64,000 nt of DNA, taken from NCBI RefSeq assembly GCF_964355755.1, contig NC_092674.1, forward strand, positions 12,400,001 to 12,464,000. Direction: 5' to 3'. This DNA comes from Antedon mediterranea (taxonomy: Eukaryota; Animalia; Echinodermata). The notes beneath the pieces are model-generated. The model was not told where the DNA came from and searched no databases. It saw only the letters and a program-made list of their open reading frames with translations. This document shows, piece by piece, positions 2,601 to 41,534 of this stretch. Positions within the stretch are counted from its first letter, which is position 1. Each line of letters begins with the position of its first letter. The position numbers and the translations under genes were made by a program.

Positions 2601-2630
2601 CGGAAGACGGAAAACGTTAACAACATTGTA

Positions 2631-3466
2631 ATTTGCATATTTCATATAACTTGTACTACTAATTGTCATACTTTAGAGGTGCTTGACATTTATAATTACT
2701 AAACGGTCCTATACTGGCTATATAAAACTTGTATCCAAGTCATTTGAGGCCAAAACAAGGTCTGTACATACATTTTAGTTGCATTATATGCAAATATTAA
2801 GAAATAGGGTCGATGGTCAAATGTCATACTTCTGATAATTAAATAATAACATGTTTCATTAGAGCGAATATAAATATGTACATTCTGAATAAGGCCTTGA
2901 CAAAATCAGCTCTCTATCATTGGTTTTCGAGATATGGGAAGACTGTAATTTCACTCCCTTATTTGCATATTTCATGTAATTTGTACTACTAATTAGCATA
3001 ATTTCGAAATGCGTGACAGAGGCGTGATTTAAGGAATTACAAAGCGGTCCTATGCTGACGATAGGAAACCTGTATCCGAGTCATTTGAGTGCAAAACAAA
3101 GTCTCTACAGACATTTTAGTCGCATTATGTATGCAAACATTGAGAAATGGGGTCGAGGGTCAAATTTTTTACTTCCAGTCATTTTTTTGTAAAATGTTTC
3201 ATTAGAGCAAATATAAATATATACATTTTTAATAAATCAGTGAAAAAATCAACTCTCTCGGACTAGTAGTTTTTTAGATATGATAACCCTGTAATTTCAA
3301 CCTAATTTGCATATTTAGGCTAATTTGCATACCATCGGGTTGAGTGACAGAGGTGTGATGTTCAAATCTTGATCTCCTCATCATATGTGACCATTTAAAA
3401 AAGAAAAATCTCTGTTTGCAATTTGTTTCACTTTGGGCTGTTTTTTTAGCTAGATTGACTAGCCTA
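2631..3466. repeat. DNA-transposon-like terminal fragment with about 330-bp internal tandem repeat (possibly Academ-like end)
   Basis: ATTTGCATATTT-led units start at about 2631, 2961 and 3305. The fragment ends in GCTAGATTGACTAGCCTA (TAG terminus on the minus strand). The family call is inference. Confidence 0.4.
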
Positions 3467-4274
3467 ATACTGCAAATAAAAGTGTGTATCCTCTAAGAGA
3501 CTAATGAAAAGACAGAATTTTTATTCTAAGGCTCTGTCTACATTATCCAACTTTATGTGAAAAGGAAATGTGATGTGCCCATATATGGACACAATGATAT
3601 CACTTCTCTACCATATTTGGGTATATCACTATCATATTTGGATGAATTGGTGGCGCTCTACTGTAGCGACACGGCCTTTTCAATTGCTCTGTGTCGATGT
3701 ACAACCTTTTGGCTGTTTTGGCTAGTTTTAGTTATATATTTTGTGTTGAGGTTTGGTGAACAATGTATAAAGTTATTATTTTATGGAACTATGCTAGGTT
3801 TGGTGTTTTAACTGTTTTAATATGGAGTATTAAGGAGAGCGTAGGTGCTAACAGGGAGGGGCGGTCATTGCTAACGTACAGTCAGAGAATTTCTCTTAAG
3901 TAGACGTGGCTCAAATACGACACATTCCTTTGCAACAGGTGCGTGTTCAAACATTAACAAAACAAAGAAAAGAAATCGAGGCCAAAAAGGAGGCGTTAGA
4001 GTTCGATTAAAGAAATTAAAGAATAAAACTCCACTGCCAACAGTTGATTTTGGTAATGCACAGAGTATAAGAAACAAAGTATATGAACTGAGAGCGAACG
4101 TAAAGTTCTTAAACGTTTTTCGCGAGTCGAGCATGATTTGTTTGTTAGAAACATGGCTAACGGATAATGATCCAGATTCCTCAGTTGATCTTGACGATTA
4201 TACATTGATTAGAATGGATAGAAATGAAAATTCAGGTAAAAACAAACGAGGTGGTGTGTGTGCTTATGTAAGTG

Positions 4275-4368
4275 AACAAGGCCAACAGCCGTAAGTCGCG
4301 TGCTAAAACGCATAGTGATACCGGGCCGACAGACAGACCGACAGACCGACCGACATATTGAACTATAG
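4275..4368 (-). mobile_element. Helentron-associated element (HINE/DINE-1-like) 3' fragment
   Basis: Reverse complement of the 3' end of the element at 61596-62366, with a (GACC/GACA)n microsatellite, AGTCGCGTG and a GGCC hairpin. It interrupts the LINE endonuclease region. Confidence 0.6.
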
Positions 4369-5638
4369 AAAAAATATTGCAAGCCATCGCATATCACTGT
4401 AAGGAGTGAAGTATGTACATTGTAAGGACATTGAATTGCTTGCGATTGATATGCGGCCATATTACCTCCCAAGGGAGATACATCAAGTGAAGGTATTTTT
4501 GGTCTATATCTCACCATCAACAGACATTATTATAGTAGCAAGCACAGTATATGATCTCATTTCTGAAGCAGAAAATATTTCACCTGAAGCAGCTAAATTC
4601 ATCATGGGGGATTTCAACTCATGTTTATTAAAAGAATATCTACCTACATACCAGCAATATGTTGATTATCCAACTCGCAACAATACGTGTATCGACCTTT
4701 TTTTATGGAAATGTTGATGGTGCATACAAGTGTAAAGCTATGGCGGGTCTTGGCAAATCTGACCACAATATGATCAGCCTCATTCTAATATATAAAACCC
4801 GTCTTCGTGATAAACCCTCAAAGAAAATAAAGGTAAAACGTTGGACTGAGGATGCCAGTGGGCCGCTTAAAGGGTGTTTTGAATGCACAAACTGGGATGT
4901 ATTAACGGAAAATGCAGAAAATTTGAGCAAAGCGACCCTCGTTGTATCCGAATACGTAAGATTCTGTGAGGAAATGATAATACCTGTATCAAGAATTAAA
5001 GTTTTTTCTAATAAAAAACCTTGGGTGTCCAAAAAACTCCTTAAAATGGATATGAAAGGATTTTAAAATTTCACAACAATGACTTTGTTTGAATCCTTTT
5101 AATGTTAATAAACAGCACACAAAAAATTAGATTAAAATACCTAGTAGAACTTGAGAAATAAACAAATTAAATGTTTGTATAAAACGTCCGCAAAATGGCC
5201 GACCAACTGGCACGCCATCTTAATTTTTATGAACGTTCTATACGCACGTACGAGATTGTCAAGTTTAGAGTTTGAAACACCCGGGATTGTAGCCACGGCA
5301 GCAGTCGTTTTGTGATTGGTTAATGCATTTTAATACAGTCCAATCACCGCCTTGCCTCGTTAGCGGACTGTGTGGTGTATACAAAATAAACAAACCCATC
5401 CTACACGAGACTCACGTGTTGCAAGCTCCCTGTTGCTGCAGTCGTAGAAAATATCGATATTTCACAAATCAATATAAAGTTATGTCTGCAAAGATTGTAC
5501 GTGAAAAGAAGAAAGGGTGTATTTGTACATCTCACACTAAACCACTCACGCAGACTACAAAGTAGGCTAGGTCTAGTAGACTATAGTTTCTTTTAAATTC
5601 GCTAGTACTATACTAGGCTAGGCCTACACATGGAGTTA

Positions 5639-5813
5639 TGCACTTGTCAATTGTATGACCCACTATACAACCCCCGGACGGACATTGACACACCTTGTTC
5701 ATTGATGTGACGTACCATCTAGGTTTTTTGACGCACCCCTGCGTCAGTAATTATTTGTAAATGACGCACCTCTCCCGGGGGTCGTATAGTGGGTCATACA
5801 ATTGACAAGTGCA
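5639..5813. mobile_element. 175-bp MITE with about 38-bp TIRs and TTA TSD
   Basis: TGCACTTGTCAATTGTATGACCCACTATAC... is inverted to ...GTATAGTGGGTCATACAATTGACAAGTGCA, with TTA on both sides. Confidence 0.85.
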
Positions 5814-6071
5814 TTACTCCATGGCCTACATACAGTACAAGAGAGTAGTAGTCGCCAGTCCACCGACGAACCTCCAGGAAGTGGACAAGGTGCGGGCGTA
5901 GACGTATGTAAAAGGCGACGTAAATAAGAAAGGTAAGCTTGTGTTGAACTTGTTTTTGGCTCTGACTTTTGTTATTGACTAATATAGTAATATAATAGTA
6001 CTAATAATTAAAGTAGAGCAGAGGTGAGTCAGAGAGGATTATTATAGTTTAGTTAGTAACTGTACTGTAAT

Positions 6072-6315
6072 GAAATGAAAATGAAAATGTGTGAACTATT
6101 TTAAAACGGGATAGATGATAATGATGATCCTGTCAAGTGTATAACAAAATATAAGAAAATTAATGAAAAAAGGAGTAATACAGAATTCATATATGTAAAA
6201 ATGTTACTTATGAACTGTAACGACATTTACAAGTTAAATAATACGATTTTATGTAATATGAGATAACATGAATGTGAATAAAAGTGGTGTTTGCGCCACA
6301 AAAGAGAAAAAAAAA
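6072..6315 (-). mobile_element. Short retroposed 3'-UTR fragment with 17-bp TSD
   Basis: AGTAACTGTACTGTAAT occurs at 6055-6071 and 6316-6332. A (TGAAA)n simple-repeat tail is at the left end. Confidence 0.55.
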
Positions 6316-7727
6316 AGTAACTGTACTGTAATTAAATAATAACCTCTTTCTGTTTGTTACCAAGTCATAAATATAATACTATAGGGCCTAGGTAGGATTG
6401 AATAAAAATAATAGTACATTGCCATCCATTTATTGGTCTTATCTTTGCAGATTTATGGAATCAACAGTACATGAGATGGCTTTGAAGAACTGTAATACAA
6501 TTGTAAACATCAACAAATTATATGGCAGAAATAGTGTGTGGAATGAATTTTATTGAACAAATGTATCGAAATGAGTTTGGAACAAGCAGGATTTTTCAAA
6601 CAGGACATAAATTACTTTTGAGACCTGAGTGATACATTTTAATTCTATCAACACCAGCCAGCTCCACCATATTCAAGAGATGGATTCTTTCATAAATGTC
6701 CATTGTACATAGTATTCGGCTAAATAAATAAAAAAAGAAGTACAGTAGTGGTTTATTTGTTTATATACCCAGACCCATTTAGATGGTTAAAAACAAACAC
6801 TATATGATACACTGCTACTAGTGTACTGTCTGGTAGTACATTACCATAGTTACAGTATGACTGTAACCATAGCATTCACGTCTAAAGCATTCTTTTATGT
6901 ATATTTTACTATTCTTCATAAATATTTAGTTCTGTAATTGTAATTGTCTAAGCTCATTCTATACTTGGTCTCTTAGTATACTGTATATGTATCGTGTAAC
7001 CATGATCCAAGTAGCATCTATTATAAAGTACGCTGGGCATCTTTCTATTCACCTGAAAAAAGGAAAATGAATAAGCACATGTTTATCTGCCCTCAAAACA
7101 AAATAATAATTTATTATAATGTATTATGTAGGTTTGATCAACAGTTTAAAATAGCAATGCTCAGTATCTGTTACCTTAATATTATAATTTTACTCTAACA
7201 TTTGCGCTTCCATTCCAATCAATAAATACATTTGCTTATCCCGTCCATCAATTATCAAAGTTGCACTCCAGTTATAGACCTGTAGGAAGGTAAAAATACA
7301 AACGAATTGTTTATTTATACTGTATTAATAATATATGATACAAGCTCAAATACCCCTAACTAGGCCTGGCCTGTTATACCCTTTATTACTACACTAGAGA
7401 AAATCCTCTATTCATTGTATTGGGAATCTTAATAATATTTAGTATTCAGTGTTGCCTAGCCTAGGCATGTATTAATAACAAAAACATATTTTAATAATGC
7501 GTTAATCAGAAACGAAGACTACAGCACACAACAGTATTAATAAACGTACTTATAAATAATGTGTATATACATAATACAGTAACACAATTGATTGTGCCTA
7601 CCATTAACACCCTCAACGATACATCAAGGAGCATACGCTCTCAGCTCACCTCTGGCCGGGCGACTACACACCGTATCCAGCAGTCATCACTACTAAAAAA
7701 GCCTAGCTAGCTCCTCCATGCTCCAGG

Positions 7728-10491
7728 TATGGAAAGCCAAACCCGCCAAAAATACATAATACATACCATCCACCAATAATTAATTCGTACAAAATTCAAA
7801 CCATCCAATATTATCTCATGCAGTTCAATGAAAACTTAAACCATTCACCTAGTATCTACACCATCCAATACAATGTGTGACCATCTACCACTAGCCCAAA
7901 CGACAATACGCCGAACAAACTACCCATAACACAAACCATCTAAAGAATGTTGAGCCCAGGCAGCAATAATTGAATTAATCTAACGTTAATACAAGTATAT
8001 ATTAGCCAACTCATTTATCAACATTTCATGTAGTTCATGAACATTTCAAACAAAGCATCTTAATTTTAGTTCATCGAATTATAATTCTAATTCATTGCCT
8101 GTTTTATACACCGTTCGTCTGTTCAACAGTTGAAACAACTGTTTTGCACACGATACGCCCGTTCGTGAGTTCAAACCATGATATTTGAAGCATCGACTTT
8201 CCAAACAGCGATTTTTCGCACCGAACGTATTTTCTTGAGTTAAAGTGGTTGCATTTCAATCACTTGCTTTTGATTGGCCAGTATTACACACCGTTCGCTT
8301 GTTCGTGATTTCAAACCATGATATTTGAAGCATCGACTTTCCAAATGGCGATTTTTCGCACCGAACGTATTTTCTTGAGTTAAAGTGGTTGCATTTCAAT
8401 CACCTACTTTCGATTGGCCAGTATTACACACCATTCGCTTGTTCGTGATTTCATGTGATAACATTTCATTCGACAATTTTTCAAACGTTAGTTTTTGACT
8501 CCGCTTACGTATATGTCAGTTGATATACTATTTTTTAATTTTCATACTTTCCATAGTCAGTTTTGTACATCATTCGCATTTACGCATGTAAAGTGTAGAT
8601 ATTCCACTCGACAAGTTTTAAAACGGTAGTTTTTTTTTTATTGTTTAATTGTAACTGTTGGCGCCGATTTTATATTGGGGGGGAGGGGGAGGTGTTCGGT
8701 ACTGAATTTGAACAGTACACATTTTTAAATATGGTACCTCTACACGTTGGGTTATTTAATGCATGATGAATAACAAAATAATTATGATTTAATAACAATA
8801 CACATGTTTTTATTTAATCCATGATAAATATTCGTAAAATATGTTTATTCGGATATTTATTAATTACGTCTCCACTATAGTCTATAAAACATAATGAATG
8901 TCATTATTTCAAAAAAATAGGCCTACCCCGTAAACAAATGGAAGCTTCTCAACAACAGTTAATTTATGCATCATAGAGAGCACAGAGCAGAAAATGGCTC
9001 TAGACCGGCCTCATCTAGCAGCCGCCGCACACGCCCGCCGCGTAGGGAGGGGAGAGAGAAGCACGACACCAGCTCTCTCTCTCCTCTGTCTCTCCCCCAC
9101 AGGCGGGCGAGGTGGGTGTTACCCAGGGAACATTTTCGCCAGTGTAGCGTAGCAAAAAGCTATAAAAAACAACCTTATTGCTACACATTTTGAAAATTGT
9201 GTAGCAAAAAATACAATACAAAACTATGTTTCTCGACTTAAAAATCAGTTTGATTAGCAATATTGCTAAACAAAATTTTAAAATGAAAATTTTCCCTGTT
9301 ACCCCGGGCCTAGTTGTGGGGCGTAAAATTGTAACAGGCCCACAAGCTAAATTATATTATTTCATTCTGTTTTTTTTCCATTATTTAAGTTTGTGATAAT
9401 GTGTGTAACCAGGGAGATGTAAAATAAATTTATAAATTAGTTTACATCTCCCTGACCTGTGTGTGTAACGTAGGCCTAGGCCTAAGTAAGTGTCATACAG
9501 TCGTAAAGTTGACATTCATCCCCCGCCCCTCAATATTAAATCGGCGCCAACAGTTACAATTTAACAATAAAACAATAAATGTGCGAAAAACTACCGTTTA
9601 AAACTTGTCGAGTGGAATATCTACACTTTACATGCGTAAATGCGAATGATGTACAAAACTGACTATGGAAAGTATGAAAATTAAAAAATAGTATATCAAC
9701 TGACATATACGTAAGCAGAGTCAAAAACTAACGTTTGAAAAATTGTCGAATGAAATGTTATCACATGAAATCACGAACAAGCGAACGGTGTGTAATACTG
9801 GCCAATCGAAAGTAGGTGATTGAAATGCAACCACTTTAACTCAAGAAAATACGTTCGGTGCGAAAAATCGCCATTTGGAAAGTCGATGCTTCAAATATCA
9901 TGGTTTGAAATCACGAACAAGCGAACGGTGTGTAATACTGGCCAATCAAAAGCAAGTGATTGAAATGCAACCACTTTAACTCAAGAAAATACGTTCGGTG
10001 CGAAAAATCGCTGTTTGGAAAGTCGATGCTTCAAATATCATGGTTTGAACTCACGAACGGGCGTATCGTGTGCAAAACAGTTGTTTCAACTGTTGAACAG
10101 ACGAACGGTGTATAAAACAGGCAATGAATTAGAATTATAATTCGATGAACTAAAATTAAGATGCTTTGTTTGAAATGTTCATGAACTACATGAAATGTTG
10201 ATAAATGAGTTGGCTAATATATACTTGTATTAACGTTAGATTAATTCAATTATTGCTGCCTGGGCTCAACATTCTTTAGATGGTTTGTGTTATGGGTAGT
10301 TTGTTCGGCGTATTGTCGTTTGGGCTAGTGGTAGATGGTCACACATTGTATTGGATGGTGTAGATACTAGGTGAATGGTTTAAGTTTTCATTGAACTGCA
10401 TGAGATAATATTGGATGGTTTGAATTTTGTACGAATTAATTATTGGTGGATGGTATGTATTATGTATTTTTGGCGGGTTTGGCTTTCCATA
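7728..10491. mobile_element. Non-autonomous IS3EU-like DNA transposon with about 950-bp TIRs
   Basis: Near-perfect inverted repeats at 7728-~8680 and ~9530-10491, with TATGG...CCATA termini and a 6-bp TSD TCCAGG (7722-7727, 10492-10497). Each arm contains a 140-bp tandem repeat. Confidence 0.8.
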
Positions 10492-12296
10492 TCCAGGCCA
10501 TGGCATTTTCAAACCATGGCATTTTCAAACCATTTACTCGTCCAACCGTTTCTTCAAAACGATGTTAACACCCGTGTTAACAAGACGATGTGGACGAATT
10601 TCCATCAATTTCAGTTAATTACAACGAAATAATAATAAAATGAATGTTTCAATAATACGTGTATAATAAAAATAGCGAAATAAACATCGCTCGCGAGAGA
10701 GGGTCGAGAGAGAGCCAAGGTGATTGACTCTGTGATTCTTACGCATGCGCAAAATAACTCCGTGTACCCAGCAAGATATGAATTTCGTGAAAGGTGGCCT
10801 TGAAAAACGAAATTAAAATCCGTTTTCAAAAAAACATGGTTGATAATATGAATTAATTTTATTCGATTATTAGCTAACATACTTTTCCAAGAATAAAAAT
10901 ATCAAAGCGATAAGTAAAATACTACCATGCTTTTGCATCAATCAATGATTTACGCCTAAATTCCTTTCTCTGTAATACAAAAATAACTTTTAGTGACGTC
11001 ACAAAAAGTTTTTCACAGGTTTCCCAGGGGCGTTTTGAGGGCGTTGTCGTCCTTCAAAACATTAAGTATGACTATGGCAAGCTTAAAACTGAATGATCTA
11101 CACGTTGAGCCAATAAAATGATATTGCTAGGAACTCTTTCATATCCATTTTAATGAGAAAAAGAAATGTTTTTTATGACGGATAGAAAGAGAAGCGGAAA
11201 GATATATAGAAGAAATCAATTTGCATATCCTCCAAACAAGTGTGTTGAGGATGCAGTGCTTCTACTCATTAGTAATGTTTCTGAGCACTTAGAGAAAACA
11301 GGTTGCTTTGCAAGAATTCTTTTTGTTGATTTCTCAAGTGCATTCAATAATATTCAACCATATGTTCTGGCTAACAAGCTTATCAATTTAGATGTTAACC
11401 CATTGATTATAAAATGGCTACTGAGAACAGCACGTTAAGCTAAATTACACGTTGTCCTCGTTGTTTAATGTTAACACGGGTGTTCCACAAGGTTGTCGCC
11501 TTATCAATATACACAAATGATTGTAAGTCAAATAATACAAAAACTGATATTATTAAATATGCAGACGATTGGTTATCTGAATTCAAAATTCAATGACGGG
11601 CTTCTTAGACAGTATTCATATTTTTCACGAATGGTGTAAAGATAATTTTTTAGATCTAAATGTGAATAAAACTAAAGAGATGGTTTTTGATTTTCAGAAG
11701 ATAAATTACCTTCTCAAGACCCAAACCAATTTGGAGACAGTTTTGGAAGTTAAAACTTACAAATATTTAGGGGTTGAATTTGATAATGAACTTAAATGTG
11801 ATGCAAATAGTAGGTGCATATACAATACATTACAAACACGTCTCTTCTTCTTTCTACGCAAATTAAACTCTTTCAAGATTGACCGTACTATAGTACAACT
11901 TTTTTATACTTCTATCTTAAACAGTGTACTTAGTTTTTGCCTAATATGTTATTATGGTAATTCACGTTTTAAAGATAGACTTTTACTTAATAAAACAGTT
12001 AAACAAGGCAGTAGAATAGTAGGCTCTGAACAAATTCAACCTAAAGTTTTATATAAGGAATTAGTAAATAAAAAATAAAAAATTATTTTAAAAGACCACG
12101 CTCACCCTATGCACTATAAATTTAACAAAAGTCAACGTAGTGACAGACTCCTTCAAAGAAAAATTAAAACAAATAGATATGGTAATTCATTCGTCCCTGC
12201 TGCAACACGATATTATAATGAATGACATGCGCTAGTTTTATTTATTAGTAGCATTTTAATCGACATTAGGATTTTATATTTATATTTTGTATATAA

Positions 12297-12592
12297 TATA
12301 ATAATAATATCCTGGATTTATACAGCGCCTAATGTTGTGAAACCTCTAAGCGCTGAACATTATTACCCCAGTCATTTTCCTGATCAAACACCAATGGAAA
12401 CATACTCCCATAATGCAGCTAGTAATCAAGTTGTGTCTTGATCATCTAACCGGGTTCCCAATTATACACCTGGGTGGAGAGAGGCAAACGTAAGTAAAGT
12501 ATCTTGCCGAAGGATACAAGCAATGCAGCGAGACATCGAACCTCGATCTCACGATCAGTAGTCGAACGTCCAACACACTGCGCCAAACGCCC
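12297..12592 (-). mobile_element. tRNA-derived SINE
   Basis: The minus strand begins GGGCGTTTGGCGCAGTGTG and has a B-box-like GGTTCGATGTC, a central GGCAAGATACTTTAC...CTCTCCACCCAGGTGTA block, an L2-like GCGCTGTATAAAT end and an (ATT)n tail. Confidence 0.7.
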
Positions 12593-15500
12593 ATGGCTTT
12601 TATATCGTAATTTATATATTTTATGTACTGTATCCATGTCATATTTGTATGTACTGTATTTTGAAAAGGCCAACAGAGTTTCTCCATGGGGATAATAAAG
12701 TTTTAATTGAATTGATTGAATTGAATTGATCACTATTATATTTGGTACATCACACTTTTTTGCCAAGCTAGTTTGATAGTGTAGACAGTAGTTGTATATG
12801 CTTTTTTGACATTACATACTATATATTTTTTTAATAACTTTTTTAACTTATTCTAAATGTTTTATGGTCTTTTTTTCCTTTTCAAATTATGTATTTTTTT
12901 TCAACTTTATTTATAGAGGTAACCCTTCCAGCTGAACCCGCAGGCCAGCTGATATTCAGGGGCCCTCTTAAAAATGACACAATATATAAAACTATACTTA
13001 ACTAATACGAATCTATATACATTTACATTTACAACAATTATATAAAAAAATAATTATCAAAAAAAAAAAAATTCAATTAGACAATTACGATAATATGTGT
13101 TTTTTTAAATTAAATTTAAACGAGTTAATATTGGTACATTCTTTTAAATCAGAAGGTAATACATTATATAAAATACTAGCAGAATAAATAAAAGAGCGCC
13201 GGAAACAGTCCAATTTAACTTTGGGTACTAGTAAGTCTCCCCTGGAAGCAGCCCTAGTCCTCATAGAGCGTATCGGAACAGTGGAAAATCGTTGGGTGAT
13301 GTATCGAGGGGCAATATTGTTCATAGCTTTAAAAGCTAGGCAGCCTACCTGGTATTGCACCCTCTGTGACACATTCATGATATGTAGAGATGTTAGAAGA
13401 AGGTGAGTGCTGGTGCGAGGCGGAGAATGAAGAACTACGCGCATAGCGCGATTTTGAAGTTTTTAAATCTTATTAATGTTTGTTTTACTTCCGGTGCCCC
13501 AGAGAAGAGCACCGTAGTCTATGTGTAGACAAATTAATGCGTTGTAAAATAAATGTGCTGTACGTTTGTCAAGATATTTTCTAATTCGTGCAAGTGTGTG
13601 GATTTTGAAAGAAAGTGTAGAGCTCAACTTACTGACATGGGTATGCCAGTTAAGTTGATTGCCAGTGTGTTTGTGGTTAGTTACTACTTTGATCGGTTGT
13701 GCAGCAATCGATACATCTATTGTTTTGTGTTTAAGCCGCTGAAGGACGCCAATTAACATCGCCTCAGTTTTGTCAGTGTGTAATGATAATCGGTAAGAGG
13801 TGAGCCATGTGTTAATTAGTGAGAGATCAGAGTTGATGTTTCTGTTAATTATTATGTATGTTAGAGTGCGAATAATATAGGGTGTAATCATCAGCATAAA
13901 GATCAAGAGTACCATGTTCTAGAACAGTGGCAAGATCACTGATGTAAATTGTGAATAATAAGGGTCCAAGAATGGACCCCTGAGGTATACCGTGTGTTAT
14001 GGTGAGAAAATTAGAATAGGTGTTTTTGAATTTAACTGTTTGTGTGCGGTTATTTAAATATGATGTAAACCACTCGATGCCAGATGAGGATACACCACAC
14101 CGAGTCAGTTTTCTAAGCATGATTTTGTGGTTGACCGTGTCAAAAGCTTTTCTTAAATCTATGAAAACTGGCCCGGTGAGGCGACCCCCATTCATAGCAT
14201 CGAGCCAGATGTCACATGTGTTAGTAAGTGCTGTAGTGGTAGAGAAGTGTTTCCTAAAGCCTGATTGGTTATCTGAGAGAATGTTCTGTGCTGTAAGATA
14301 GTCATAGAGTTGGATATGAGCAGCGCGTTTGATGATTTTAGAGAGGATCGGTAAAACGGATATAGGTCGATAATTGTTGAGTTCGTCCTTGGTCCCACTT
14401 TTATATATAGGAACAACGTTGGCGATTTTAAGGTCATTTGGAAAAATACCAGATGAAAGTGAAAGATTACAGATATATGTCACAGAAGGCGCAATAACAG
14501 GGGCTGCCAACTCGAGCAATTTGTTAGGGTAACAATTTACTCCAAGTGACGTTCCGCAGTTCAATCGACTAAGTTGCTCCAGGACAGACTCACAAGATAC
14601 CCTCTGAAAATCAAATTGAGAATCAAATAAAGGTAAGTAAGATCATGTATCAACATTATTAGCTGCAAGTGCATTGTCAAGATGAGTAGCTATATTTACA
14701 AAATAATCATTATATGCATTACTAATTTCATTTTCATTACAAGAAGAATGACCATTGATCCTAACAGAAGATGGCAACCAGTTAGACTTTGATGAGATCA
14801 AATGTTTCATTCCTTTCCACATCTTGCTGGTGTCATTTGCAGATTCAATTAAAAAGTTCCTATAATAATTAACTTTTGACTTTCTACACATTTTATTAAT
14901 CTGATTTCTAATTTTTTTAATTTTTAACCGTAGTTCAGCTTGAGCGCTTGGGTTTGCATTTGACTTTAATCTATCACGTTCGTGCATCAGAATAAATATG
15001 TCATCACGACCTTTTAACCACAAGGGCAAAGTTTTTTTTTAACGTTTCGTTTTTTCTGGAGCATGGACATTAATTACTCCACCAAGGAAATTGAGAAGAA
15101 CTTTTAAACAGACGTTCACGTCATCAAGTTGAGGAATTATGTTCCAAGGTAGTTTTTTTCAGGTCATTAATGAAGTTATCTTCATTGAAATTTCAGAAGT
15201 CCCTGAAGGTCCGCTGATCATGTTCATTCTTGGGGGGTTTGATACGTATTGATGTAAAAGTAAAGTTATGGTCACTTATGTCTGACAACAACGTTGCATT
15301 GTTGTCGTGTAATTCCTTGTTGGTTGTGAGTATAACATCAATTAACGTTTGAGAGTCTCTGGTCGTACGCGTTGCATTCGGGATAATCTGTGTCAGATTG
15401 AATAAGTCCATGATATGGATGAGACTGTTTCTATTCGTGTGTGGTTTCAGCATGTCCACATTAAGATCGCCTAACATGATAACATCCTTGGAATCACAAT

Positions 15501-15595
15501 AGTCTTCCAGGAAACTCTCAAGATGAGTAAAATATATCGCAGGTGAGTTTGGGGGTCTGTAGACAACTGATGCCCGTATTACGACTGAAGCCACA

Positions 15596-17826
15596 TGAAT
15601 AGCCTTCAAGGTGCGAACTTATCTGATTACACCATGCACGCCAAATGCAGATCTGATAATGGACGTCGAGGTGGTGGTGTAGCCTTTTATACACATAATG
15701 AAGTTAATATTAAAGTAAGTGATGTTTCTATGGATATCCATGATAATTGTGAATTTGAATGTTTGTGGAGAAAATTTGACTTCCGTAGTGTTGGTGTAGC
15801 AATTAAAACTATGTTCGTTGGCGTCATTTATTACCCTCCCAATTCGGCTAATGCCACTGAGCTTCTCAGTCACATTACGAGTACCGTTTATAGCATTATA
15901 ACTAGTAATTTTCCAGCAGGAATTATGGTATGTGGTGATTTCAATGATCTCAATACTTCAGAATTGGAGTCTAAGTTGTTTTTGAAACAGGTGGTTAACT
16001 TTCCTACTAGACAAATTGCGCACCTCGATAATATATTTGTTAACATTCCTAATATGTTTACTGAAGCTATGGAACTACCACCAGTTGGTCGAAGTGACCA
16101 TTGTTGTATTTTGTTGGAACCATCAACCAATCTTGCAGATGTAAATCACAAGCCAGCACATTTGCTGTTTCGTCCACTAAGAGACTCCTCGATCAGATCA
16201 TTTGGACAATGGATGTCTTTGCATAATTGGAATCATCTTAGTGCTTATGAAAACTCTTCAGATTTTTGGGAAATGTTTAATCAGTAGCTCAACAGTGCTT
16301 TTGAAAAGCATTTTCCTCAAATTTTCACTAACAAGAGATTGAATGACAAGCCCTGGTTTACAACTAATTTTAGAAGATTAATTTTGAAACGCCAGGTGGC
16401 TTACCGAAATGGACAGGATATCCAGTGGAAAAACTTACGTTGTAAGGTACAGCAGGAAGTCAAACGAGCGAAGGCTTCATTCTATGAAAGTCTATTGCTA
16501 CCTTCAAAGTGAACCAACCTGTAAAATGGCACCGCAGTGTCCAGAAGATCTGTAATATGAGGAAGAAATCAAGTCGTATTCCTGACTCGGATGTTGACCC
16601 TATAAACACCATTGAATGCATCAATAGCCATTTTGCACTTGTATGTAATCAGCTTCCGGCTTTGAATATCAACAAGCTACCAGCCTTCCTCCCAGCAAGT
16701 GAACCACCAGTTATACATGCATGGGAAGTTCGTAAGGCTTTGAATAAATTGAACTGTAATAAATCAAGCCACTCATCAGACTTACCAATTAAAATAATGA
16801 AGGAATTTGCTATTGAACTTGCTAACCCGCTAACTAAATTATTTAATACGTGTCTCAATGAGGGACACTTTCCACGTCAGTGGAAAACTGCTTCAATATT
16901 TCCAGTTCCAAAACAAAACAAGATCCGCTCTTTTGATGATCTTCGTCCAATATCATTGACGCCGGTCTTTGCTATGATTTTTGAGGCATTTATTGCCAAA
17001 TGGATTATTGAGGATATTGATAATAAATTAGACACTAAGCAGTATGGTAATACTAAAGGTTCATCTACTATACATTATCTTGTTATTGTTGGATATGTTA
17101 AATTATGTTTATGAAAGTCTTGACAAGCCCAAACAATCAGTTGAACTCTGTACAATTGATTTTACTAAGGCCTTTGATAGAGTTAATCATACAATCATTA
17201 TAGATAAATTAATTAAACTTGGAGTTAGGTCTTCCATTGTTTCCATCGTCTGCAGCTTTCTGTGTGAAAGAACTCGTACTACCAAACTTGGCACGCACAT
17301 TTCTTCCACCAAATCAATCTCTTGTCGGGTACCACAGGGAACCAAACTGGGACCCATACTATTCTTGGTTCTAGTAAACGATGCTGCCATTGAAAGTAGT
17401 AGGCGTTGGAAATTTGTGGATGACCTGACTCTAGAGGAAGTAACCAAATATGGTGCTTCCTCTAACTTACAAAGTGTCCTTAATAGTATCAGTGAGTGGT
17501 GTGCATCTAATGATGTTCTACCTAAACCAGCTAAATGCCAAGTAATTAAAATTAACTTGTTAAAGCAACGGCAGCTTAATTTAGTATACACTATTGATAA
17601 TTATAATCTTCTAATAGTTAGTAAGTTAAAACTGCTTGTTGTAATAATCCAAAATGACCTCAAATGGGGTTCAAATGTTAATGATATAACATCAAGAGCC
17701 TCGCGTAGACTATTCTCACTATGTATCCTGAAAAGGTCTAGTGCACCAGTCAGTGACCTGGTTAAAGTATTTACATCATATATCAGACCTGTGCTGGAAT
17801 ATGCCTGCCAGGTTTGGCATTCACGA
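15596..17826 (+). mobile_element. Second CR1/L2-clade LINE fragment (EN and RT), opposite orientation, nested
   Basis: Motifs: RRGGGVAFY, YYPP, CGDFND, GRSDH, LRPISLTP, IDFTKAFDRVNH, VPQGTKLGP, KFVDD, RPVLEYACQVWH. Confidence 0.9.
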
Positions 17827-18060
17827 TGCCTTAACAGTCGGAGTTGATCGATTTTGTCCGTTAAACTATTTATATTGATGTGCGCAATTCGTAATCCCTT
17901 ACATTGATTTATAAAATCAAACGTTGAGGATCTCCGGCTGCCACCTGCTTTCAAATCAAGCTGTGTATTCCCTCGAAGTACTTGAGCTTGATTGTTGTTG
18001 TTTGGTATGGTATTCGTTCCGGGTAGATGATTACTATTTCCGTAATGTCTGCCATTTTGG

Positions 18061-18087
18061 TGGACCAGGGTTTAATTCAATATCTCC
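18061..18087 (-). other. 2A-like ribosomal-skipping (StopGo) motif GDIELNPGP
   Basis: Exact D(V/I)ExNPGP consensus, preceded by SELCMC and located upstream of the LINE endonuclease. Confidence 0.85.
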
Positions 18088-18655
18088 ACACATACATAAT
18101 TCTGACATGTTAAATGTACTTTGAGAGTTATGATAGTATCGGATGGGCGCATTGAAAAATTTGCGTTTGAAAGTCCCGCTATACGTATTCATACGCTTCA
18201 GATCGTGTAGAGCATTATACGTATCCGGCCTTGCTGTCGCCTGCGACAACTCGACGTAGGAGAGCGACGATAATGAAATTGATATAGGCTTACCGATAAA
18301 ATCACTGTCGTATGTCCAATTTAATCCATTAAAACGGTCATTGTTCGCCAATCCATAAACAATATCATAATCATACTTCTTGTATCGGTAGGATTCATAA
18401 TATATGAACCCAGATACAGCAATTAATGAAAGTAATAATAGAGTATAAAGACTCATCGTGTTAACATGCATACAATAAAGTTATCTTGAATCTTAAGATC
18501 TTTACTCAGTATCATAATCCAGTATGCTCAATTGGATTGCAATAGAGATTTTTGTATTTATTGATCAAGTTTAAGAATTCTTTACCATGCTAACCTACTA
18601 AAATATTGTGATAATACATAACATATTGTACGGTTTATAAAACAAATATTCTTAC

Positions 18656-18793
18656 TTCTTCTTCTTTCTGATCAACTTTCCATTCCTGTTTTGATACTGT
18701 TACAGAAATTGTCATGTCCTTATACATAGATAGTATACCTACAGGTGCTATTAAAGGCTTCTCACCGATTTCTCTGTGGTCTTCTTTTACCTT
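18656..18793 (-). CDS. Exon of ANK-ZU5-UPA gene: UPA-like segment (KVKEDHREIGEKPLIAPVGILSMYKDMTISVTVSKQEWKVDQKEEE)
   Basis: TTTCAG acceptor, GTAAG donor, 138 nt open, phase 0-0, in frame with the ZU5 exon. It resembles the segment that follows ZU5 in UNC5-like proteins. Confidence 0.75.
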
Positions 18794-19249
18794 CTGAAAT
18801 AGGAATATGTACTGTTATTTGTGACTGTGTACATATTTGTTTTTTAACTACAGTATCTGAGGGAAGAGTACAGTGCATTCATCATGTTCACTTCTAAAAT
18901 AATTTTAACTGTAAATAGTTTAGGGAAATTTTGAATTTTCTGCCATAAATGTTAATTAATGTGTTATTATACGTTAGCTCAAATCTAGTGAGTGTCAATC
19001 CACAGGTATGAAGTAAGATGCATTTTTTCATACTGTACAAAAAGAGAATAAATATTATGCCAAGTTAACAAATTTAAAATAATATTATTATTGACCAAAT
19101 AAGATAAGAAGTAATAGTAACTTATTCAATCTTTCTAGAAACTGTGGCAGAGCAACTTTATATTATATCTATATTCTGAACAGTTAATTGATTGTAAGTA
19201 AAATAAGAACTACATTATTCAAATACAGTTTAAAAATTATAGTAATTAC

Positions 19250-19782
19250 CTTTACATCTGACGGCTTAAAAAGTCTTGTTTGAAGTTGATATTCATCATT
19301 TGCAAGCATCTTTCCAAAAACTCCTAACAACATTCTTTTCCTACCACGAAAGAAATTTCTTAGATGACCCATTAGTGCATACCAACAGAAATGATTTAAA
19401 GTTACATAACAATGACTGTTGTTTACAGTAAACTGTACATCCTTTTCATCACTTTTCAATGTTATTTGTTTCCATTCATCTTCAATGCGATCTTTAACAA
19501 GTAGAGTGAATTCCCAAAACTCTACATTTACAGCATCGTGTTGAAATGACAATGAAATGGGCTTGTTAAAGCTGGTGCCCTCTGGTCCACATTTAACAAT
19601 AGGTGATATAATGGTTTCACGAGGATGAGATACAGGCATGTCTGTTTCCTCAAAACAATTTTCTAGCGATATTTTAACTTTCTTCCCTTCAATTGCTTCA
19701 GAATGTATCTCCAACTTTATGTCTTCATCCTTAAGATGAAGCACTCCACCAGAAGATCCCACAACTATCTCCATAACTTGAT
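19250..19782 (-). CDS. Exon: ZU5 domain and start of UPA
   Basis: CTGCAG acceptor, AAG|GTAATT donor, 533 nt, phase 1-0. Motifs: GSSGGVL, LEIHSEAI, IISPIVKCGPEGTSFNKPISLSFQH, LNHFCWYALMG. Confidence 0.9.
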
Positions 19783-20427
19783 CTGCAGAACAGAAATACT
19801 CAATTCTATTGTAGATATTTACACAGTGTTTTAAAATTATGTTTATACTTTTTACTTTCTAGATTAACGTTAATGATTAACGTTAAATATATATTTAATA
19901 AGATTAATAAATTGATTAAATAGAACTTATGACTCTCCACATTCCAAATTAATTAGTGTTCCATGACCTTCTCATCAAAATTAACGTCACTCATTGTTGT
20001 GCTATGTCAACATAATGTCAATGACGGCGAAATGTCCCCAATAATGGGATAGCTATGCAAACAAGTAACAAGTAACATGATTGAACTACTTTTCATTGTA
20101 TTTATATGCAATTATATTTATTAAAAAACTGGTTTTATGTTTTTTATGAGACTTCTCCAATGGTGCCCACATTGAACAACATGATCTTATTGTAAATGGT
20201 TCCATAACATTCTCCAGCTGTCTAAGGTCTGTCTGATGGAACTCTAAGCAGTATAGTATCATCTGATGATCAAAGTGAGCAAGCTGGTTGATACAATATA
20301 AGATTTGACTCAAATAATAATTTTGAGCAATATTTTGTCATGATTTGAATGTGGTTAGGAGTAATTCATATTGAATCTAGAAGAGATCTATGAATTGAAA
20401 GTTCGTTTTAATCATTGGTGGTTCGTC

Positions 20428-23058: not shown

Positions 23059-23157
23059 GTGGTTTAAATGATTTACGTCTGCTCCAACTTTGATGAGATA
23101 CGTACATGTACGCACGTGACCCATATCTGCAGCACACAAAAGAGGTGTATTCCCGTC
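23059..23157 (-). CDS. Ankyrin-repeat exon (DGNTPLLCAADMGHVRTCTYLIKVGADVNHLNH)
   Basis: 99 nt, TTTCAG acceptor, GTAAGT donor, phase 0-0, ankyrin consensus. Confidence 0.92.
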
Positions 23158-35770: not shown

Positions 35771-36578
35771 GGTTAATATTATATTGTATTCCGTTTAATC
35801 AGCAAGGCCTACATTTCATTTTCCATGTGTTAATTTTCACTATGATCACACGATTACGAAATCAGCAACAGTTGACCACATACGAATGACAATCGGTTCT
35901 TTTTAGTGGGCTGAATTATTAACATTAATTGACTTAAACGGCCACCAACTGTTATTATTCAGTTTAATAAAACCAAGTCTCACTTGTACAGAGAATATGT
36001 CTTGAAAACTTTTACAGATACAATATCATTTCACTATAAATCTTTGATATCATGTGTATATAAACAACACTTGATGTGTTTACAATTGCCATGTCACGGG
36101 AATACGGTTGAGTTTCATAGGAAACAAAGTTGTAGAGATTATAAGTTTCTGAAATATACTGTAGTGCTGCTGTGTTATCGGAGAAAGTATTTTATAATCT
36201 AATCACAGTATGTATTCAATTATCTCAACACAAATACCAATTGAAATGCCATAGTTTCTGTGATTAGTTCTTTAGTTCTTTTAAATATGTCTACTATAAT
36301 CTTTCCATCTCTTCTGAAACTTGTTTTCAATACAATCAATTGCCTGTTGTAGATACAAACAAGGAAAACGTTTATTCATCATTACTAACAAGTAAGTTAT
36401 CAGGGATAGTTATTTTTTCAGGTTGATGTACTTACATTTCCATCACATAACCCTTACCTTTTATCACGTAACGTATTAAGAGTACACGCCTGTTCATGTG
36501 CGCCATATTATTGCTCATATATTCTTTACCAAAATAATTGTGCAAGCACTGTTAACGTAGTTTACCTAGTTTACCAAT

Positions 36579-37424
36579 AGAGAGAAATGGCGAACCGCGA
36601 TGACGTCACTCAAATTTCACCGAGTGGGTATATATTGTAAACAAACCATTTCGCCACATGTTTTTGTATGGGAAATTCCGATGGGTTGAGTTAAAAAGGA
36701 AGGTAGAAAAGAACGTTTAAAACACACATAATAGCAGTATCTTTTTTTTTTGCAACACCCTTAACAATTTTAATGTTATATGGGCAAATCTTAACATATT
36801 TTATTTTAATTTGGATTGAATTAAGATGCGTTTTTGTTATATACTGTACCCAGCTCTAGGCCCTAGATAGTTGGCCTGTATGCTGTAGTACCTCGGATTA
36901 TCGGTTATTATAATAATAATAATATTGGAAATTCGTTATTGCATACTGTACTACTACTACTACTACTACTACTTTAGCTAGGGTGCTGCTGGCCTCTCCT
37001 AGCTAGGTAGTAAGACTAAATAGAGCATCTCTAGTAGATGTAGGCCTAGCATTAGTTTCAGCTTGACAACTGCCATTTTGTTATGTGGCTAGTGATGCTT
37101 CATGCAGGGAGGGGGGGGGGGGGGCTACCGCCAGTAGATAACACCATTCTATATAATACTATATAGGCATAGTCTAATGTAGACCTACAGATATGAGATA
37201 TTTTTAGGAATATGATTGTGAATGATGGATGACTTTTATACATATTTCATTGTTTTATTGTGTAAGTACACAAATACAACAAGAATTATGAGCGTTACAG
37301 CAACAACATTGGTTAGACGAAACCATGATTCACGTGTATAAACATAGGAAATGTGTCGCCCTCAACGGTTTGTTATGATTTTATACCCACTCGGATTTTA
37401 GACGTCGGTTCGCCATTTCTCTCT
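36579..37424. mobile_element. ISL2EU/PHIS-like MITE (second copy at 42295-43131)
   Basis: AT|AGAGAGAAATGGCGAACCG ... CGGTTCGCCATTTCTCTCT|AT. It is absent from the paralogous site at about 47973. Confidence 0.7.
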
Positions 37425-40400: not shown

Positions 40401-40606
40401 TATGTTGTACCATGTGGAGTTGAAGTTTAACAGAACAATATAAATAGTTCTAATGGTTCTGCTAATTTAGTATTATTTATATAATGTAGTGACAGTACTT
40501 TAGGTATGTTATTACCGGTTCGCCCTTAAATTTGAAAATTAAACCATTTATTTTAATCACACTGAACTATATAGCACCCTTATTAATAATGTTATGTAAA
40601 ACTTAC

Positions 40607-40705
40607 ATTTGTTGTAAGATCCAAATTAGCACCTGCCTTGAGCAAAATAGTGCAAATATCTGTTTGGCCATTACTTGCAGCATAATGCAAAGGTGTCCAT
40701 CCGTC
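40607..40705 (-). CDS. Ankyrin-repeat exon (DGWTPLHYAASNGQTDICTILLKAGANLDLTTN)
   Basis: 99 nt, TTTCAG acceptor, GTAAGT donor, phase 0-0. Confidence 0.92.
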
Positions 40706-40951
40706 CTGAAATATTACAAACATTATGTTATAGTATTTTTCACTTCACATCAAACTATCTAATATTGTACTAAAATCAATTAGATGTGATCATGTGTATA
40801 TACAAATTCAATTAAATAATTAAATTTATATAATAATTTAAAGTATGTGTAATCAGTGCTACTAAGCGCCTTTGATGATTACATTGTTTACTTAATTATG
40901 GCAACACAAACACAATATAAGTATATGAAAGTTACTTGTTGAAACTTAAAA

Positions 40952-41260
40952 TTCAGCACCCGTCTATTTACAGGAACTAATTCAGAAGTATAACCCTGGT
41001 CGCCAGGGACTCGGATCTACACAAGATATTACTCGTCTTGTTGTTCCTAAAACTAATAGACTATTTAGTGATAAATCATTTTCTGTCATTGGACCTAAGT
41101 TATGGAACAATTTACCTATTAATGAGCGTATTGCTCCAAGTGTACAGTGTTTTAAAAAATTGTTAAAGAGTTTTCTTTTCCCTAAGGAATAATTTAGATA
41201 TGTACTGCTCTAATTAATATACAACTTTTGGGAAAAGCGCTTTATAAATCTCTATAGTAT
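40952..41260 (+). mobile_element. L2 LINE 3' fragment (duplicated at about 46621-46929)
   Basis: Encodes APVYLQELI..LVVPKT..DKSFSVIGPKLWNNLP..FKKLLKSFLF and ends in AAAGCGCTTTATAAAT. Empty paralogous sites lie at about 52095 and 55005. Confidence 0.8.
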
Positions 41261-41534
41261 AAAATAAATTGCCATAAATAGATTGTTAAATGATACTGGT
41301 ATGTACTTCTTGTATCTAATTTATAAACAAAAAATATTATTTTAATTATAAATTTGTAATATTAAACCATTGGACAGTGTGTGTGTGAAATATGTAATGT
41401 ACTTCCTCTATCTAATTTATAAAAAAAAAATAAAATATTTTAATTAGATTTGTCTTTATTCATTAGGCATAATGTGTATGTACCAGTTCCAGAAACGAAT
41501 GAATCACGATTATTAATAAAAAGTATGAAAGCAC

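What the first reader, a model, noticed from the sequence alone, without database searches (positions are those of the whole stretch)
19385..19393. HF|C at the end of ZU5: possible cysteine-nucleophile autoproteolysis site
Seen: YVTLNHFCWYALMG at the ZU5/UPA boundary. Known: PIDD1 self-cleaves at HF|S, NLRP1/CARD8 at F|S at the equivalent position, and inteins and Hedgehog use Cys for the same acyl-shift chemistry. Inference: the protein may self-cleave into ANK-ZU5 and UPA-(effector) fragments, which would allow NLRP1-style release of the C-terminal part when the ankyrin region is bound or degraded.
Basis: partly seen in the sequence, partly recalled or inferred. Interest (0 to 1): 0.72.

Follow-up and report, generated by a model that had tools for sequence, protein, structure and literature searches.

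The report
Cysteine-type self-cleavage motif in crinoid ZU5
A feather-star (crinoid) exon encodes a ZU5 domain that ends in His-Phe-Cys exactly where related proteins carry the His-Phe-Ser/Thr self-cutting site, so the protein would likely cut itself using cysteine; this is a conservative variant of a known mechanism, and this gene copy may be incomplete.

Summary
CAT-TTC-TGT (His-Phe-Cys) lies at 19385-19393 on the minus strand, in a 533-nt exon (19250-19782) encoding a ZU5 domain plus the first UPA strands.

The site is homologous to the known ZU5 self-cleavage site. In 88 of 88 aligned relatives that keep His-Phe, the next residue is Thr (53), Ser (22) or Cys (13). Canonical non-cleaving UNC5 receptors have QLG-type sequences there. 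Within one well-supported clade of four close crinoid paralogs all three residues occur: the window and P0005 have HFC, P0003 has HFT, P0004 has HFS. A confident model (pLDDT 93.6) puts HFC in the turn between two strands. Alignment to UNC5b plus published numbering equates Phe129/Cys130 with CARD8 Phe296/Ser297.

Not supported:
- The ankyrin link: the nearest ankyrin exon cannot splice in frame, and 0 of 69 scanned relatives carry ankyrin repeats.
- Any effector: the last third of UPA and a death-fold domain were not found in the 18.6 kb downstream, which is full of retrotransposons.

Cleavage is untested. This scan earlier noted the same HFC variant in a sea urchin.

The parts
19385..19393 (-). 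His128-Phe129-Cys130 codons (CAT TTC TGT). This is the predicted scissile Phe|Cys bond with Cys as nucleophile. Numbering starts from Met at 19774.
   Evidence: sequence; column is HF+S/T/C in 88 of 88; turn between strands 121-128 and 131-138.
19250..19782 (-). ZU5 exon, 533 nt. It has a phase-1 acceptor ttctgcag|AT and a phase-0 donor AAG|GTAATT. It encodes the whole ZU5 sandwich plus the first strands after the site (WYALMG..., RMLLGVFGKM, YQLQTRLF).
   Evidence: The AF2 model has pLDDT 93.6. It matches UNC5b 545-724 at Z 14.4, rmsd 2.4, with 172 of 174 residues aligned. Contigs of run X1 at 90-95% likeness (paralog transcripts) break exactly at 19250 and continue as a paralog's next exon.
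19772..19774 (-). In-frame ATG (caagttATGG), a possible start codon. Paralog P0009 begins at the equivalent Met (MELIVGSTGG...).
   Evidence: (P0009 residues 1-169 align to query 1-170).
18656..18793 (-). UPA exon 2, 138 nt and 46 codons (KVKEDHREIGEKPLIAPVGILSMYKDMTISVTVSKQEWKVDQKEEE). Acceptor tttcag|AAG, donor GAA|GTAAGA.
   Evidence: sequence; tblastn of 6 of 7 paralog queries, E 1e-12 to 8e-3.
13107..18480 (.). Nested non-LTR retrotransposons that begin about 175 bp downstream of the exon-2 donor. No further UPA or death-fold coding sequence was found in or beyond them, down to window position 1. They may have cut the gene short, or may simply fill a long intron.
   Evidence: RVT_1 and endonuclease domains; an X1 contig joins 15600 to 17823, showing nesting.
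23059..23157 (-). Nearest upstream ankyrin-repeat exon (99 nt, phase 0/0). It is the last of five on this strand; the others start near 33269, 40705, 46374 and 53710. Membership of the same gene as the ZU5 exon is not shown.

Best explanation
The exon encodes a ZU5 domain of the UNC5CL/PIDD1-like self-processing type, and its His-Phe-Cys would likely serve as the cleavage site, with the Cys130 thiol predicted to attack the Phe129-Cys130 peptide bond. Shown: the motif is in the sequence. It sits in the family's HF+[S/T/C] column, in the turn between the last ZU5 strand and the strand that follows. It corresponds by alignment to UNC5b Leu677/Gly678, and therefore to CARD8 Phe296/Ser297. Inferred from the PIDD1, Nup98 and CARD8 chemistry: the buried Phe strains the bond and His128 helps activate the nucleophile. 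An N-to-S acyl shift would then give a thioester, and water would resolve it. That would leave a ZU5 fragment ending in ...NHF and a UPA fragment beginning with Cys, probably still held together because the post-site strand is part of the ZU5 sandwich. In complete paralogs the C-terminal fragment carries UPA plus a helical DED-like region, in some with a tail anchor. In this window that part was not found, so this copy may be a short or truncated member.
For: 1. Family and fold. Pfam ZU5 scores 65 bits. The AF2 model has pLDDT 93.6 and pTM 0.86. VIA Z is 15.4 to ankyrin ZU5, 14.4 to UNC5b, 9.9 to rat NLRP1 FIIND and 10.3 to the BAI3 GAIN domain. Foldseek gives E 1.6e-8 to UNC5b.
2. Site column. 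Of 119 aligned domains, 88 have HF, and all 88 are followed by T (53), S (22) or C (13). The 18 domains without Phe include canonical UNC5B (QLG) and carry no T or C there. A shark UNC5C-like protein has HFS in this column.
3. Turnover among close paralogs. A clade supported at 98/95 holds the window (HFC), P0005 (HFC), P0003 (HFT) and P0004 (HFS). A second clade supported at 100/98 holds P0006 and P0009 (HFC) and P0008 (HFS). The site columns were left out of the tree.
4. Positional equivalence. The phmmer alignment puts F129/C130 on chain positions 137/138 of 3g5b. With the offset fixed by Cys663 and Cys670, these are Leu677/Gly678. D'Osualdo 2011 states that CARD8 Phe296 corresponds to UNC5b Leu677 (passages read).
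5. HFC recurs elsewhere: Acanthaster planci (two domains in one protein), Ptychodera flava, RFC in Amphiura filiformis, and five unnamed records.
6. The HFC paralog P0006 models as ZU5-UPA. It matches UNC5b (E 9.8e-24), rat NLRP1 FIIND (E 1.4e-8) and CARD8 FIIND (E 1.1e-4).
7. The copy is not decayed. Both exons are open with canonical splice sites. All 10 near-invariant residues of alignment A2 are present. Its end branch (0.15) is like its neighbours' (0.13-0.18).
Against: - No cleavage has been shown for this protein or for any HFC-type ZU5.
- I found no paper testing Cys at a ZU5 or FIIND site.
- S, T and C are chemically close, so part of the pattern could be conservative drift. However, A, G and N never follow HF in the set.
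- Five of the 13 HFC domains are close crinoid paralogs, and the 150 relatives were chosen by likeness to the query.
- A model cannot show backbone strain or reactivity.
- The gene looks incomplete. The last ~50 residues of UPA and any C-terminal domain are missing from the 18.6 kb downstream, and retrotransposons start ~175 bp after exon 2.
- The exact protein is not in the protein collections; the best identity is 75%.
Confidence: 0.58

Rival explanations
1. The locus is a truncated gene fragment or young pseudogene. The HFC motif would be inherited from a functional paralog, but no working ZU5-UPA protein would be made here, because retrotransposon insertion removed or displaced the 3' exons.
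For: No third UPA exon or death-fold domain was found anywhere downstream in the window by tblastn at E up to 50 or by a family HMM with filters off. The best hit (13488-13568, E 0.037) lies inside a reverse-transcriptase tail in another frame. Nested non-LTR elements occupy 13107-18480, and further RT fragments lie at 969-1406 and 11157-11435. No identical protein is in the collections.
Against: The two exons (223 codons) have no stops or frameshifts, and their splice sites are canonical. All near-invariant family residues are kept, and the branch length is ordinary. Introns in this window are long, so exon 3 could lie beyond the window start. Short paralog models exist, for example P0009 at 285 aa.
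Confidence: 0.3
2. The ZU5 is of the non-cleaving scaffold type, like those of UNC5 receptors, ankyrins and ZO-1. On this reading Cys is only a tolerated small residue, or even a deliberately slow or uncleaved variant.
For: The closest solved structures (UNC5b, ankyrin ZU5, ZO-1 ZU5) are non-cleaving. Some GAIN domains with intact motifs remain uncleaved (PMC13062082, passages read). No experiment exists for Cys at this site.
Against: Non-cleaving relatives have lost HF as well (QLG, QLM, HLA, EPG and others, 18 domains), whereas this copy keeps both His and Phe. No HF domain has a non-nucleophilic residue next (0 of 88). S/T/C interchange among 70-75% identical paralogs points to selection for a nucleophile.
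Confidence: 0.1
3. One gene would encode ankyrin repeats, ZU5, UPA and an effector. After self-cleavage, binding or degradation of the ankyrin part would free the C-terminal fragment, as in NLRP1.
For: Five 99-nt ankyrin exons lie upstream on the same strand, the nearest 3.3 kb away. Relatives with sensor-like N-termini exist: TPR-, NACHT- and Roc/COR-ZU5.
Against: There is a phase mismatch between ankyrin donors (phase 0) and the ZU5 acceptor (phase 1). The only phase-0 AG nearby (gag|TAT) lacks a pyrimidine tract. Paralog transcripts in run X1 use the cag|AT acceptor. None of 69 scanned relatives has ankyrin repeats. No effector domain is present in the window.
Confidence: 0.12

Closest known systems
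UNC5CL (ZUD) and the UNC5 cytoplasmic ZU5-UPA-death supramodule
   Same: Best sequence and structure match. UNC5b 3g5b gives E 2.5e-8 by sequence, 1.3e-16 by profile, Z 14.4 with 172 of 174 residues aligned. NCBI names several paralogs 'UNC5C-like' or 'netrin receptor UNC5B-like'. A shark UNC5C-like protein has HFS in the same column. UNC5CL is reported to keep the autoproteolytic activity (PMC10084454, passage read; Heinz 2012 seen only as a citation).
   Different: The nucleophile is Cys instead of Ser. Crinoid paralogs end in DED-like helical regions or tail anchors rather than a Pfam Death domain. Canonical UNC5 receptors have lost the motif (QLG).
PIDD1 (LRR-ZU5-ZU5-UPA-death, two HF|S sites)
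   Same: An H-F-nucleophile tripeptide at the end of a ZU5, with an acyl-shift mechanism helped by the His (PMC9162469, passages read). Some crinoid paralogs also carry two modules in tandem (P0002).
   Different: There are no LRRs. The tandem units here are ZU5-UPA pairs, not ZU5-ZU5. Cys would give a thioester rather than an ester. No PIDD1 was identified among the 30 relatives whose names I looked up.
FIIND of NLRP1 and CARD8 (SF|S)
   Same: Same ZU5-UPA fold. Rat NLRP1 7crw_A gives Z 9.9 with 153 aligned residues for the window model. For paralog P0006, NLRP1 gives E 1.4e-8 and CARD8 7jn7_B gives E 1.1e-4. Phe129/Cys130 map to CARD8 Phe296/Ser297 through UNC5b Leu677.
   Different: No sequence-level match. 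The window has His where FIIND has Ser at -2. There is no CARD, and no evidence of DPP9-type or degradation-based control.
GAIN/GPS and Nup98 autoproteolytic domains; HINT domains of inteins and Hedgehog
   Same: GAIN domains are structural relatives (BAI3 Z 10.3, CD97 Z 9.8) with an H-x-S/T site. Cis-autoproteolysis by Ser, Thr or Cys through N-to-O or N-to-S acyl shift is general chemistry (PMC13062082 and PMC3210808, passages read). Inteins and Hedgehog use Cys.
   Different: HINT is an unrelated fold, so the likeness is in chemistry only. GAIN domains are extracellular and disulfide-rich.

Membership tests
ZU5 domain (Pfam PF00791) | Profile match above the curated cutoff | tested here: met
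   E 7.8e-18, 65 bits against a cutoff of 21, residues 31-121 of the ORF.
ZU5 domain (Pfam PF00791) | ZU5 beta-sandwich fold | tested here: met
   Model pLDDT 93.6. Z 15.4 to ankyrin ZU5 (rmsd 2.7, 133 aligned) and Z 14.4 to UNC5b (rmsd 2.4, 172 aligned).
Self-cleaving ZU5-UPA modules (PIDD1 / UNC5CL type) | His-Phe-(Ser/Thr/Cys) in the turn after the last ZU5 strand | tested here: met
   H128-F129-C130 lies between strands 121-128 and 131-138. The column is HF+S/T/C in 88 of 88 HF domains.
Self-cleaving ZU5-UPA modules (PIDD1 / UNC5CL type) | Site equivalent to an experimentally mapped cleavage site | tested here: met
   F129 aligns to UNC5b Leu677 (with the offset checked on Cys663 and Cys670). 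Leu677 corresponds to CARD8 Phe296 according to PMC3210808. The route is indirect: a sequence alignment plus a published statement.
Self-cleaving ZU5-UPA modules (PIDD1 / UNC5CL type) | Complete UPA domain after the site | tested here: inconclusive
   The first strands and exon 2 are present. The last ~50 residues were not found in the window and may lie beyond the window's start.
Self-cleaving ZU5-UPA modules (PIDD1 / UNC5CL type) | C-terminal death-fold domain | tested here: inconclusive
   None was detected on the minus strand of 1-18600. Paralogs have weak DED matches, below cutoff. Absence within one window does not settle the question.
Self-cleaving ZU5-UPA modules (PIDD1 / UNC5CL type) | Observed autoproteolysis that depends on the nucleophile | not testable with these tools
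   Needs protein expression and mutants.
FIIND (NLRP1/CARD8) | SF|S motif followed by UPA-CARD; sequence membership | tested here: not met
   The motif is HFC, not SFS. No CARD is present. PDB sequence searches do not reach NLRP1 or CARD8. Only the fold is shared.
Canonical ankyrin (ANK repeats-ZU5-ZU5-UPA-death) | Ankyrin repeats and ZU5 in one reading frame and one transcript | tested here: inconclusive
   Ankyrin exons lie on the same strand upstream, but the phases do not fit for direct splicing. No transcript of this copy was seen. Ankyrin ZU5 sequences match only weakly, E 0.2-0.9.

The most novel reading that the evidence does not exclude
The thiol nucleophile is not a neutral swap. HFC-type ZU5 modules would form a thioester that makes cleavage redox-gated: an oxidised Cys cannot attack. 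The thioester could also be resolved by a nucleophile other than water, as in Hedgehog. The rapid S/T/C turnover in this ambulacrarian paralog array would then tune cleavage rate or trigger among death-fold signalling sensors.
Probability: 0.1. Interest if true: 0.75.

Novelty: new variant of a known kind. Interest (0 to 1): 0.4.

Why it matters
ZU5 and FIIND self-cleavage is the licensing step for PIDDosome, NLRP1 and CARD8 signalling. All characterised cases use Ser. Here the nucleophile position alternates between Ser, Thr and Cys among close paralogs while His-Phe stays fixed. That acts as a natural mutagenesis series. It argues that a large invertebrate deuterostome expansion of ZU5-UPA-death-fold proteins really self-processes, and that a thioester route exists in this fold. 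It offers ready-made natural variants for comparing cleavage kinetics and redox sensitivity. The chemistry is conservative, the same variant was already noted in a sea urchin by this scan, and this copy may be truncated, so the finding is of moderate rather than high interest.

Tried and rejected
- Whole-genome search of the window's own assembly: no genome is held.
- RNA evidence: no RNA holder is listed for the stretch. Runs X2, X3 and X5 are collinear with the genome across the intron, so they are DNA-like. X1 showed no cover of exon 2 or the intron, and only contigs at 90-95% likeness on the ZU5 exon. Nothing can therefore be said about expression of this copy.
- Search for UPA exon 3 or a death fold: tblastn with the C-terminal parts of 7 paralogs at E up to 50, and an HMM of 9 paralog UPA tails with filters off. 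The best hit, 13488-13568 at E 0.037, sits inside a retrotransposon RT tail read in another frame and was rejected as chance.
- Pfam scans of the window's ORFs found only ZU5, ankyrin repeats and retroelement domains. They covered 201 minus-strand ORFs of 45 aa or more and 40 of the 79 plus-strand ORFs of 60 aa or more.
- The 'near'-length protein search added only P0009.
- PDB sequence and profile searches do not reach NLRP1, CARD8 or PIDD1.
- Literature: no paper links ZU5 with an HFC site; the 3 papers with both words use hFc for human Fc. No paper names a Ser-to-Cys mutant at the NLRP1, CARD8, PIDD1, Nup98 or rat NLRP1 sites (23 unrelated hits). Liao 2014, Heinz 2012 and Rosenblum & Blobel 1999 are not held. 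I recall that Ser-to-Cys or Ser-to-Thr replacement was tested in Nup98 or PIDD, but I could not check this and do not use it.
- Zhang 2012 speaks of a 'C-terminal CxH thiol autopeptidase' motif for the ZU5 superfamily. The window has no CxH at the site (C122 and H128 are six residues apart), so I did not build on that statement.
- Notes of this scan by place and by sequence: nothing.

Full report
WHAT IS THERE.
The window is AT-rich eukaryotic DNA, 28-39% GC, with introns and many retroelements. Every close protein match is to the crinoid Antedon mediterranea at 60-75% identity. The best match from another crinoid, Anneissia, reaches only 40%. The exact protein is not in the collections.

On the minus strand, 19385-19393 reads CAT TTC TGT, which is His-Phe-Cys, within ...NNSHCYVTLNHFCWYALMGHLRN....

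The codons lie in an exon that I place at 19250-19782:
- The acceptor is ttctgttctgcag|AT, phase 1.
- The donor is AAG|GTAATT, phase 0.
- An in-frame ATG at 19774 matches the first residue of paralog P0009.

A second exon, 18656-18793 (tttcag|AAG ... GAA|GTAAGA), continues the UPA domain.

Pfam calls ZU5 at E 7.8e-18.

IS THE SITE THE CLEAVAGE SITE?
I searched the 174-residue exon product against 1.84 billion representative proteins. There were 231 hits at E<=1e-3, of which the best 150 were returned. I re-aligned all 152 stored relatives to the query with phmmer.

Of 168 aligned domains, 119 cover all three positions:
- 88 have His-Phe, followed by Thr in 53, Ser in 22 and Cys in 13. No other residue follows HF.
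- 13 have another residue before Phe (SFT, YFS, RFC, RFA, SFN, AFG and others).
- 18 lack Phe altogether (QLG, QLM, HLA, EPG and others). These include a canonical UNC5B.

A shark UNC5C-like protein carries HFS in this column. A review states that UNC5CL keeps the autoproteolytic activity that canonical UNC5 lacks (PMC10084454, passage).

Fourteen further domains end exactly at HF. Both of those whose names I looked up are ZO-1-like proteins.

PARALOGS.
The annotated Antedon paralogs show HFS (P0004, P0008, P0002 second module), HFT (P0003), HFC (P0005, P0006, P0007, P0009, P0011) and SFT (P0002 first module).

I built a maximum-likelihood tree of 19 domains with the three site columns removed:
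- The window falls in a clade of four (support 98/95) holding HFC, HFC, HFT and HFS.
- Another clade (100/98) holds two HFC and one HFS.

So the nucleophile residue changes repeatedly between proteins 60-75% identical, while His and Phe do not.

Outside crinoids, Cys occurs in Acanthaster planci (both ZU5 domains of one protein), in Ptychodera flava, as RFC in Amphiura filiformis, and in five unnamed records.

STRUCTURE AND EQUIVALENCE.
AlphaFold2 on the exon product with a 48-row alignment gave pLDDT 93.6 and pTM 0.86. HFC (128-130) falls in the two-residue turn between strands 121-128 and 131-138.

Matches of this model:
- Foldseek: UNC5b E 1.6e-8; ankyrin and ZO-1 ZU5 domains; rat NLRP1 FIIND E 2.4e-3; several GAIN domains.
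- VIA-align: ankyrin ZU5 Z 15.4; UNC5b Z 14.4 (172 of 174 aligned, rmsd 2.4); BAI3 GAIN Z 10.3; rat NLRP1 Z 9.9 (153 aligned).

The complete HFC paralog P0006 models as follows (pLDDT 80):
- ZU5 at 15-154 and UPA at 161-291.
- A helical region at 305-477 and a terminal hydrophobic helix.
- It matches UNC5b (E 9.8e-24), NLRP1 FIIND (1.4e-8) and CARD8 FIIND (1.1e-4).

For residue-level equivalence I used the phmmer alignment to UNC5b 3g5b. Query F129/C130 align to chain positions 137/138.
- Chain positions 123 and 130 are cysteines. D'Osualdo et al. name the UNC5b disulfide Cys663-Cys670, which sets the offset at 540.
- Position 137 is therefore Leu677, which the same paper equates with CARD8 Phe296 of the SF|S site (PMC3210808, passages).
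- Hence Cys130 corresponds to the CARD8 nucleophile Ser297.

MECHANISM (INFERRED).
In PIDD1 and Nup98 the His and Ser side chains start an N-to-O acyl shift at the Phe-Ser bond, and water hydrolyses the ester. Ser, Cys or Thr act as nucleophile across self-processing proteins generally (PMC9162469, passages; PMC3210808; PMC13062082).

Here the same steps with a thiol would give a thioester and then a Phe129 C-terminus and a Cys130 N-terminus. The strand after the site is modelled as part of the sandwich, so the fragments would probably stay associated, as reported for CARD8. None of this is shown for any HFC protein.

WHAT IS NOT SUPPORTED.
(a) The ankyrin link.
- Five 99-nt ankyrin exons lie upstream on the same strand. 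The nearest is 23059-23157.
- Their donors are phase 0 and the ZU5 acceptor is phase 1, so at least one unseen exon would be needed.
- Contigs of run X1 at 90-95% likeness, evidently from paralogs, leave the genome exactly at the cag|AT acceptor and at the AAG| donor. At the donor they continue with a sequence that I translate as TIEEDHREVG, the start of a paralog's UPA exon 2.
- So these splice sites are used in the family and that run contains spliced RNA, but it says nothing about this copy.
- Of the 152 relatives I scanned 69 with Pfam. None has ankyrin repeats. The architectures seen are ZU5-UPA-Death, TPR-..., ubiquitin-NACHT-..., Roc/COR-DED-... and FN3-....
I did not check it, and it only keeps the possibility open.

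(b) The effector.
- The last third of UPA and any death-fold domain were not found between window position 1 and 18655.
- A nested pair of non-LTR retrotransposons starts about 175 bp after exon 2.
- The copy may be truncated, or exon 3 may lie beyond the window.

NOVELTY AND VERDICT.
ZU5 and FIIND autoproteolysis is well known. Bacterial ZU5 'autopeptidases' and lineage-specific expansions in sponges have been described (PMC3482391, PMC8195603, passages).

I found no report of a Cys at this site of a ZU5-UPA module. Several key papers are not held, so this is not proof of absence. This scan has already noted HFC in a sea urchin protein (e1-7810301). My data add sea star, brittle star, hemichordate and crinoid cases.

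I class it as a new variant of a known kind. It is real as an observation, well supported as the homologue of the cleavage site, chemically conservative, untested, and located in a possibly incomplete gene.

Noticed in passing
window 18034-18480 (-): The first ORF of a minus-strand non-LTR retrotransposon ends ...MCGDIELNPGPPKWQTLRK. That is a 2A-like D-x-E-x-NPGP ribosome-skipping motif, just before the endonuclease/RT part (EN 15196-15618, RT 13848-14642). The meaning of the motif is recalled, not tested.
   Followed up: no
window 13107-18254: The retrotransposon above is split by a second, plus-strand RT element at 15598-17823. One X1 contig joins 15600 directly to 17823, which is the uninterrupted form.
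   Followed up: partly
window 36200-47884: A tandem segmental repeat of about 5.7 kb with units at 36.2, 41.9 and 47.6 kb. The first two units are 98-100% identical. Two units each carry an identical 33-residue ankyrin exon (about 40607-40705 and 46276-46374, minus strand), so ankyrin repeats are being added by genomic duplication.
   Followed up: partly
relatives P0016, P0043, P0051, P0053, P0072, P0075, P0077, P0089, P0098, P0124, P0126, P0129, P0130, P0131: Fourteen aligned proteins end exactly at His-Phe, the residue before the would-be nucleophile. P0043, one of these, is named ZO-1-like, as is the related P0032, which continues past HF with S. In the structural alignment the ZO-1 ZU5 chain 2kxr ends at model residue 129 (Phe). 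The peptide-fused 2kxs runs on to residue 138, filling the post-site strand. ZO-1 thus looks like a genetically 'pre-cut' ZU5 completed by a partner peptide.
   Followed up: partly
relative P0137 (Amphiura filiformis, 1512 aa): Architecture is three ubiquitin-like domains, NACHT, then ZU5 with HFT. This is an NLRP1-like layout (NACHT followed by a self-cleaving-type ZU5) in a brittle star.
   Followed up: no
relative P0003 (Antedon mediterranea, 324 aa): The RefSeq model appears to join the UPA tail of one module to the ZU5 of the next. It ends ...KPSDNQVITIC, reading into the intron just as the window's ORF does (...SDVKVITIIF). It is probably a mis-predicted piece of a tandem ZU5-UPA array.
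   Followed up: partly
window 18560-19900, run X1: Run X1, labelled only 'RNA?', holds contigs at 90-95% likeness that break at both borders of the ZU5 exon and continue as spliced sequence of paralogs. Genomic contigs of X2, X3 and X5 at about 92% likeness show that closer paralogs exist in this genome than any annotated protein.
   Followed up: partly
window 63573-63999 (-): RNase H domains of an LTR-type retroelement (RT_RNaseH E 2.3e-22, RT_RNaseH_2 E 2.6e-19) at the window's end.
   Followed up: no
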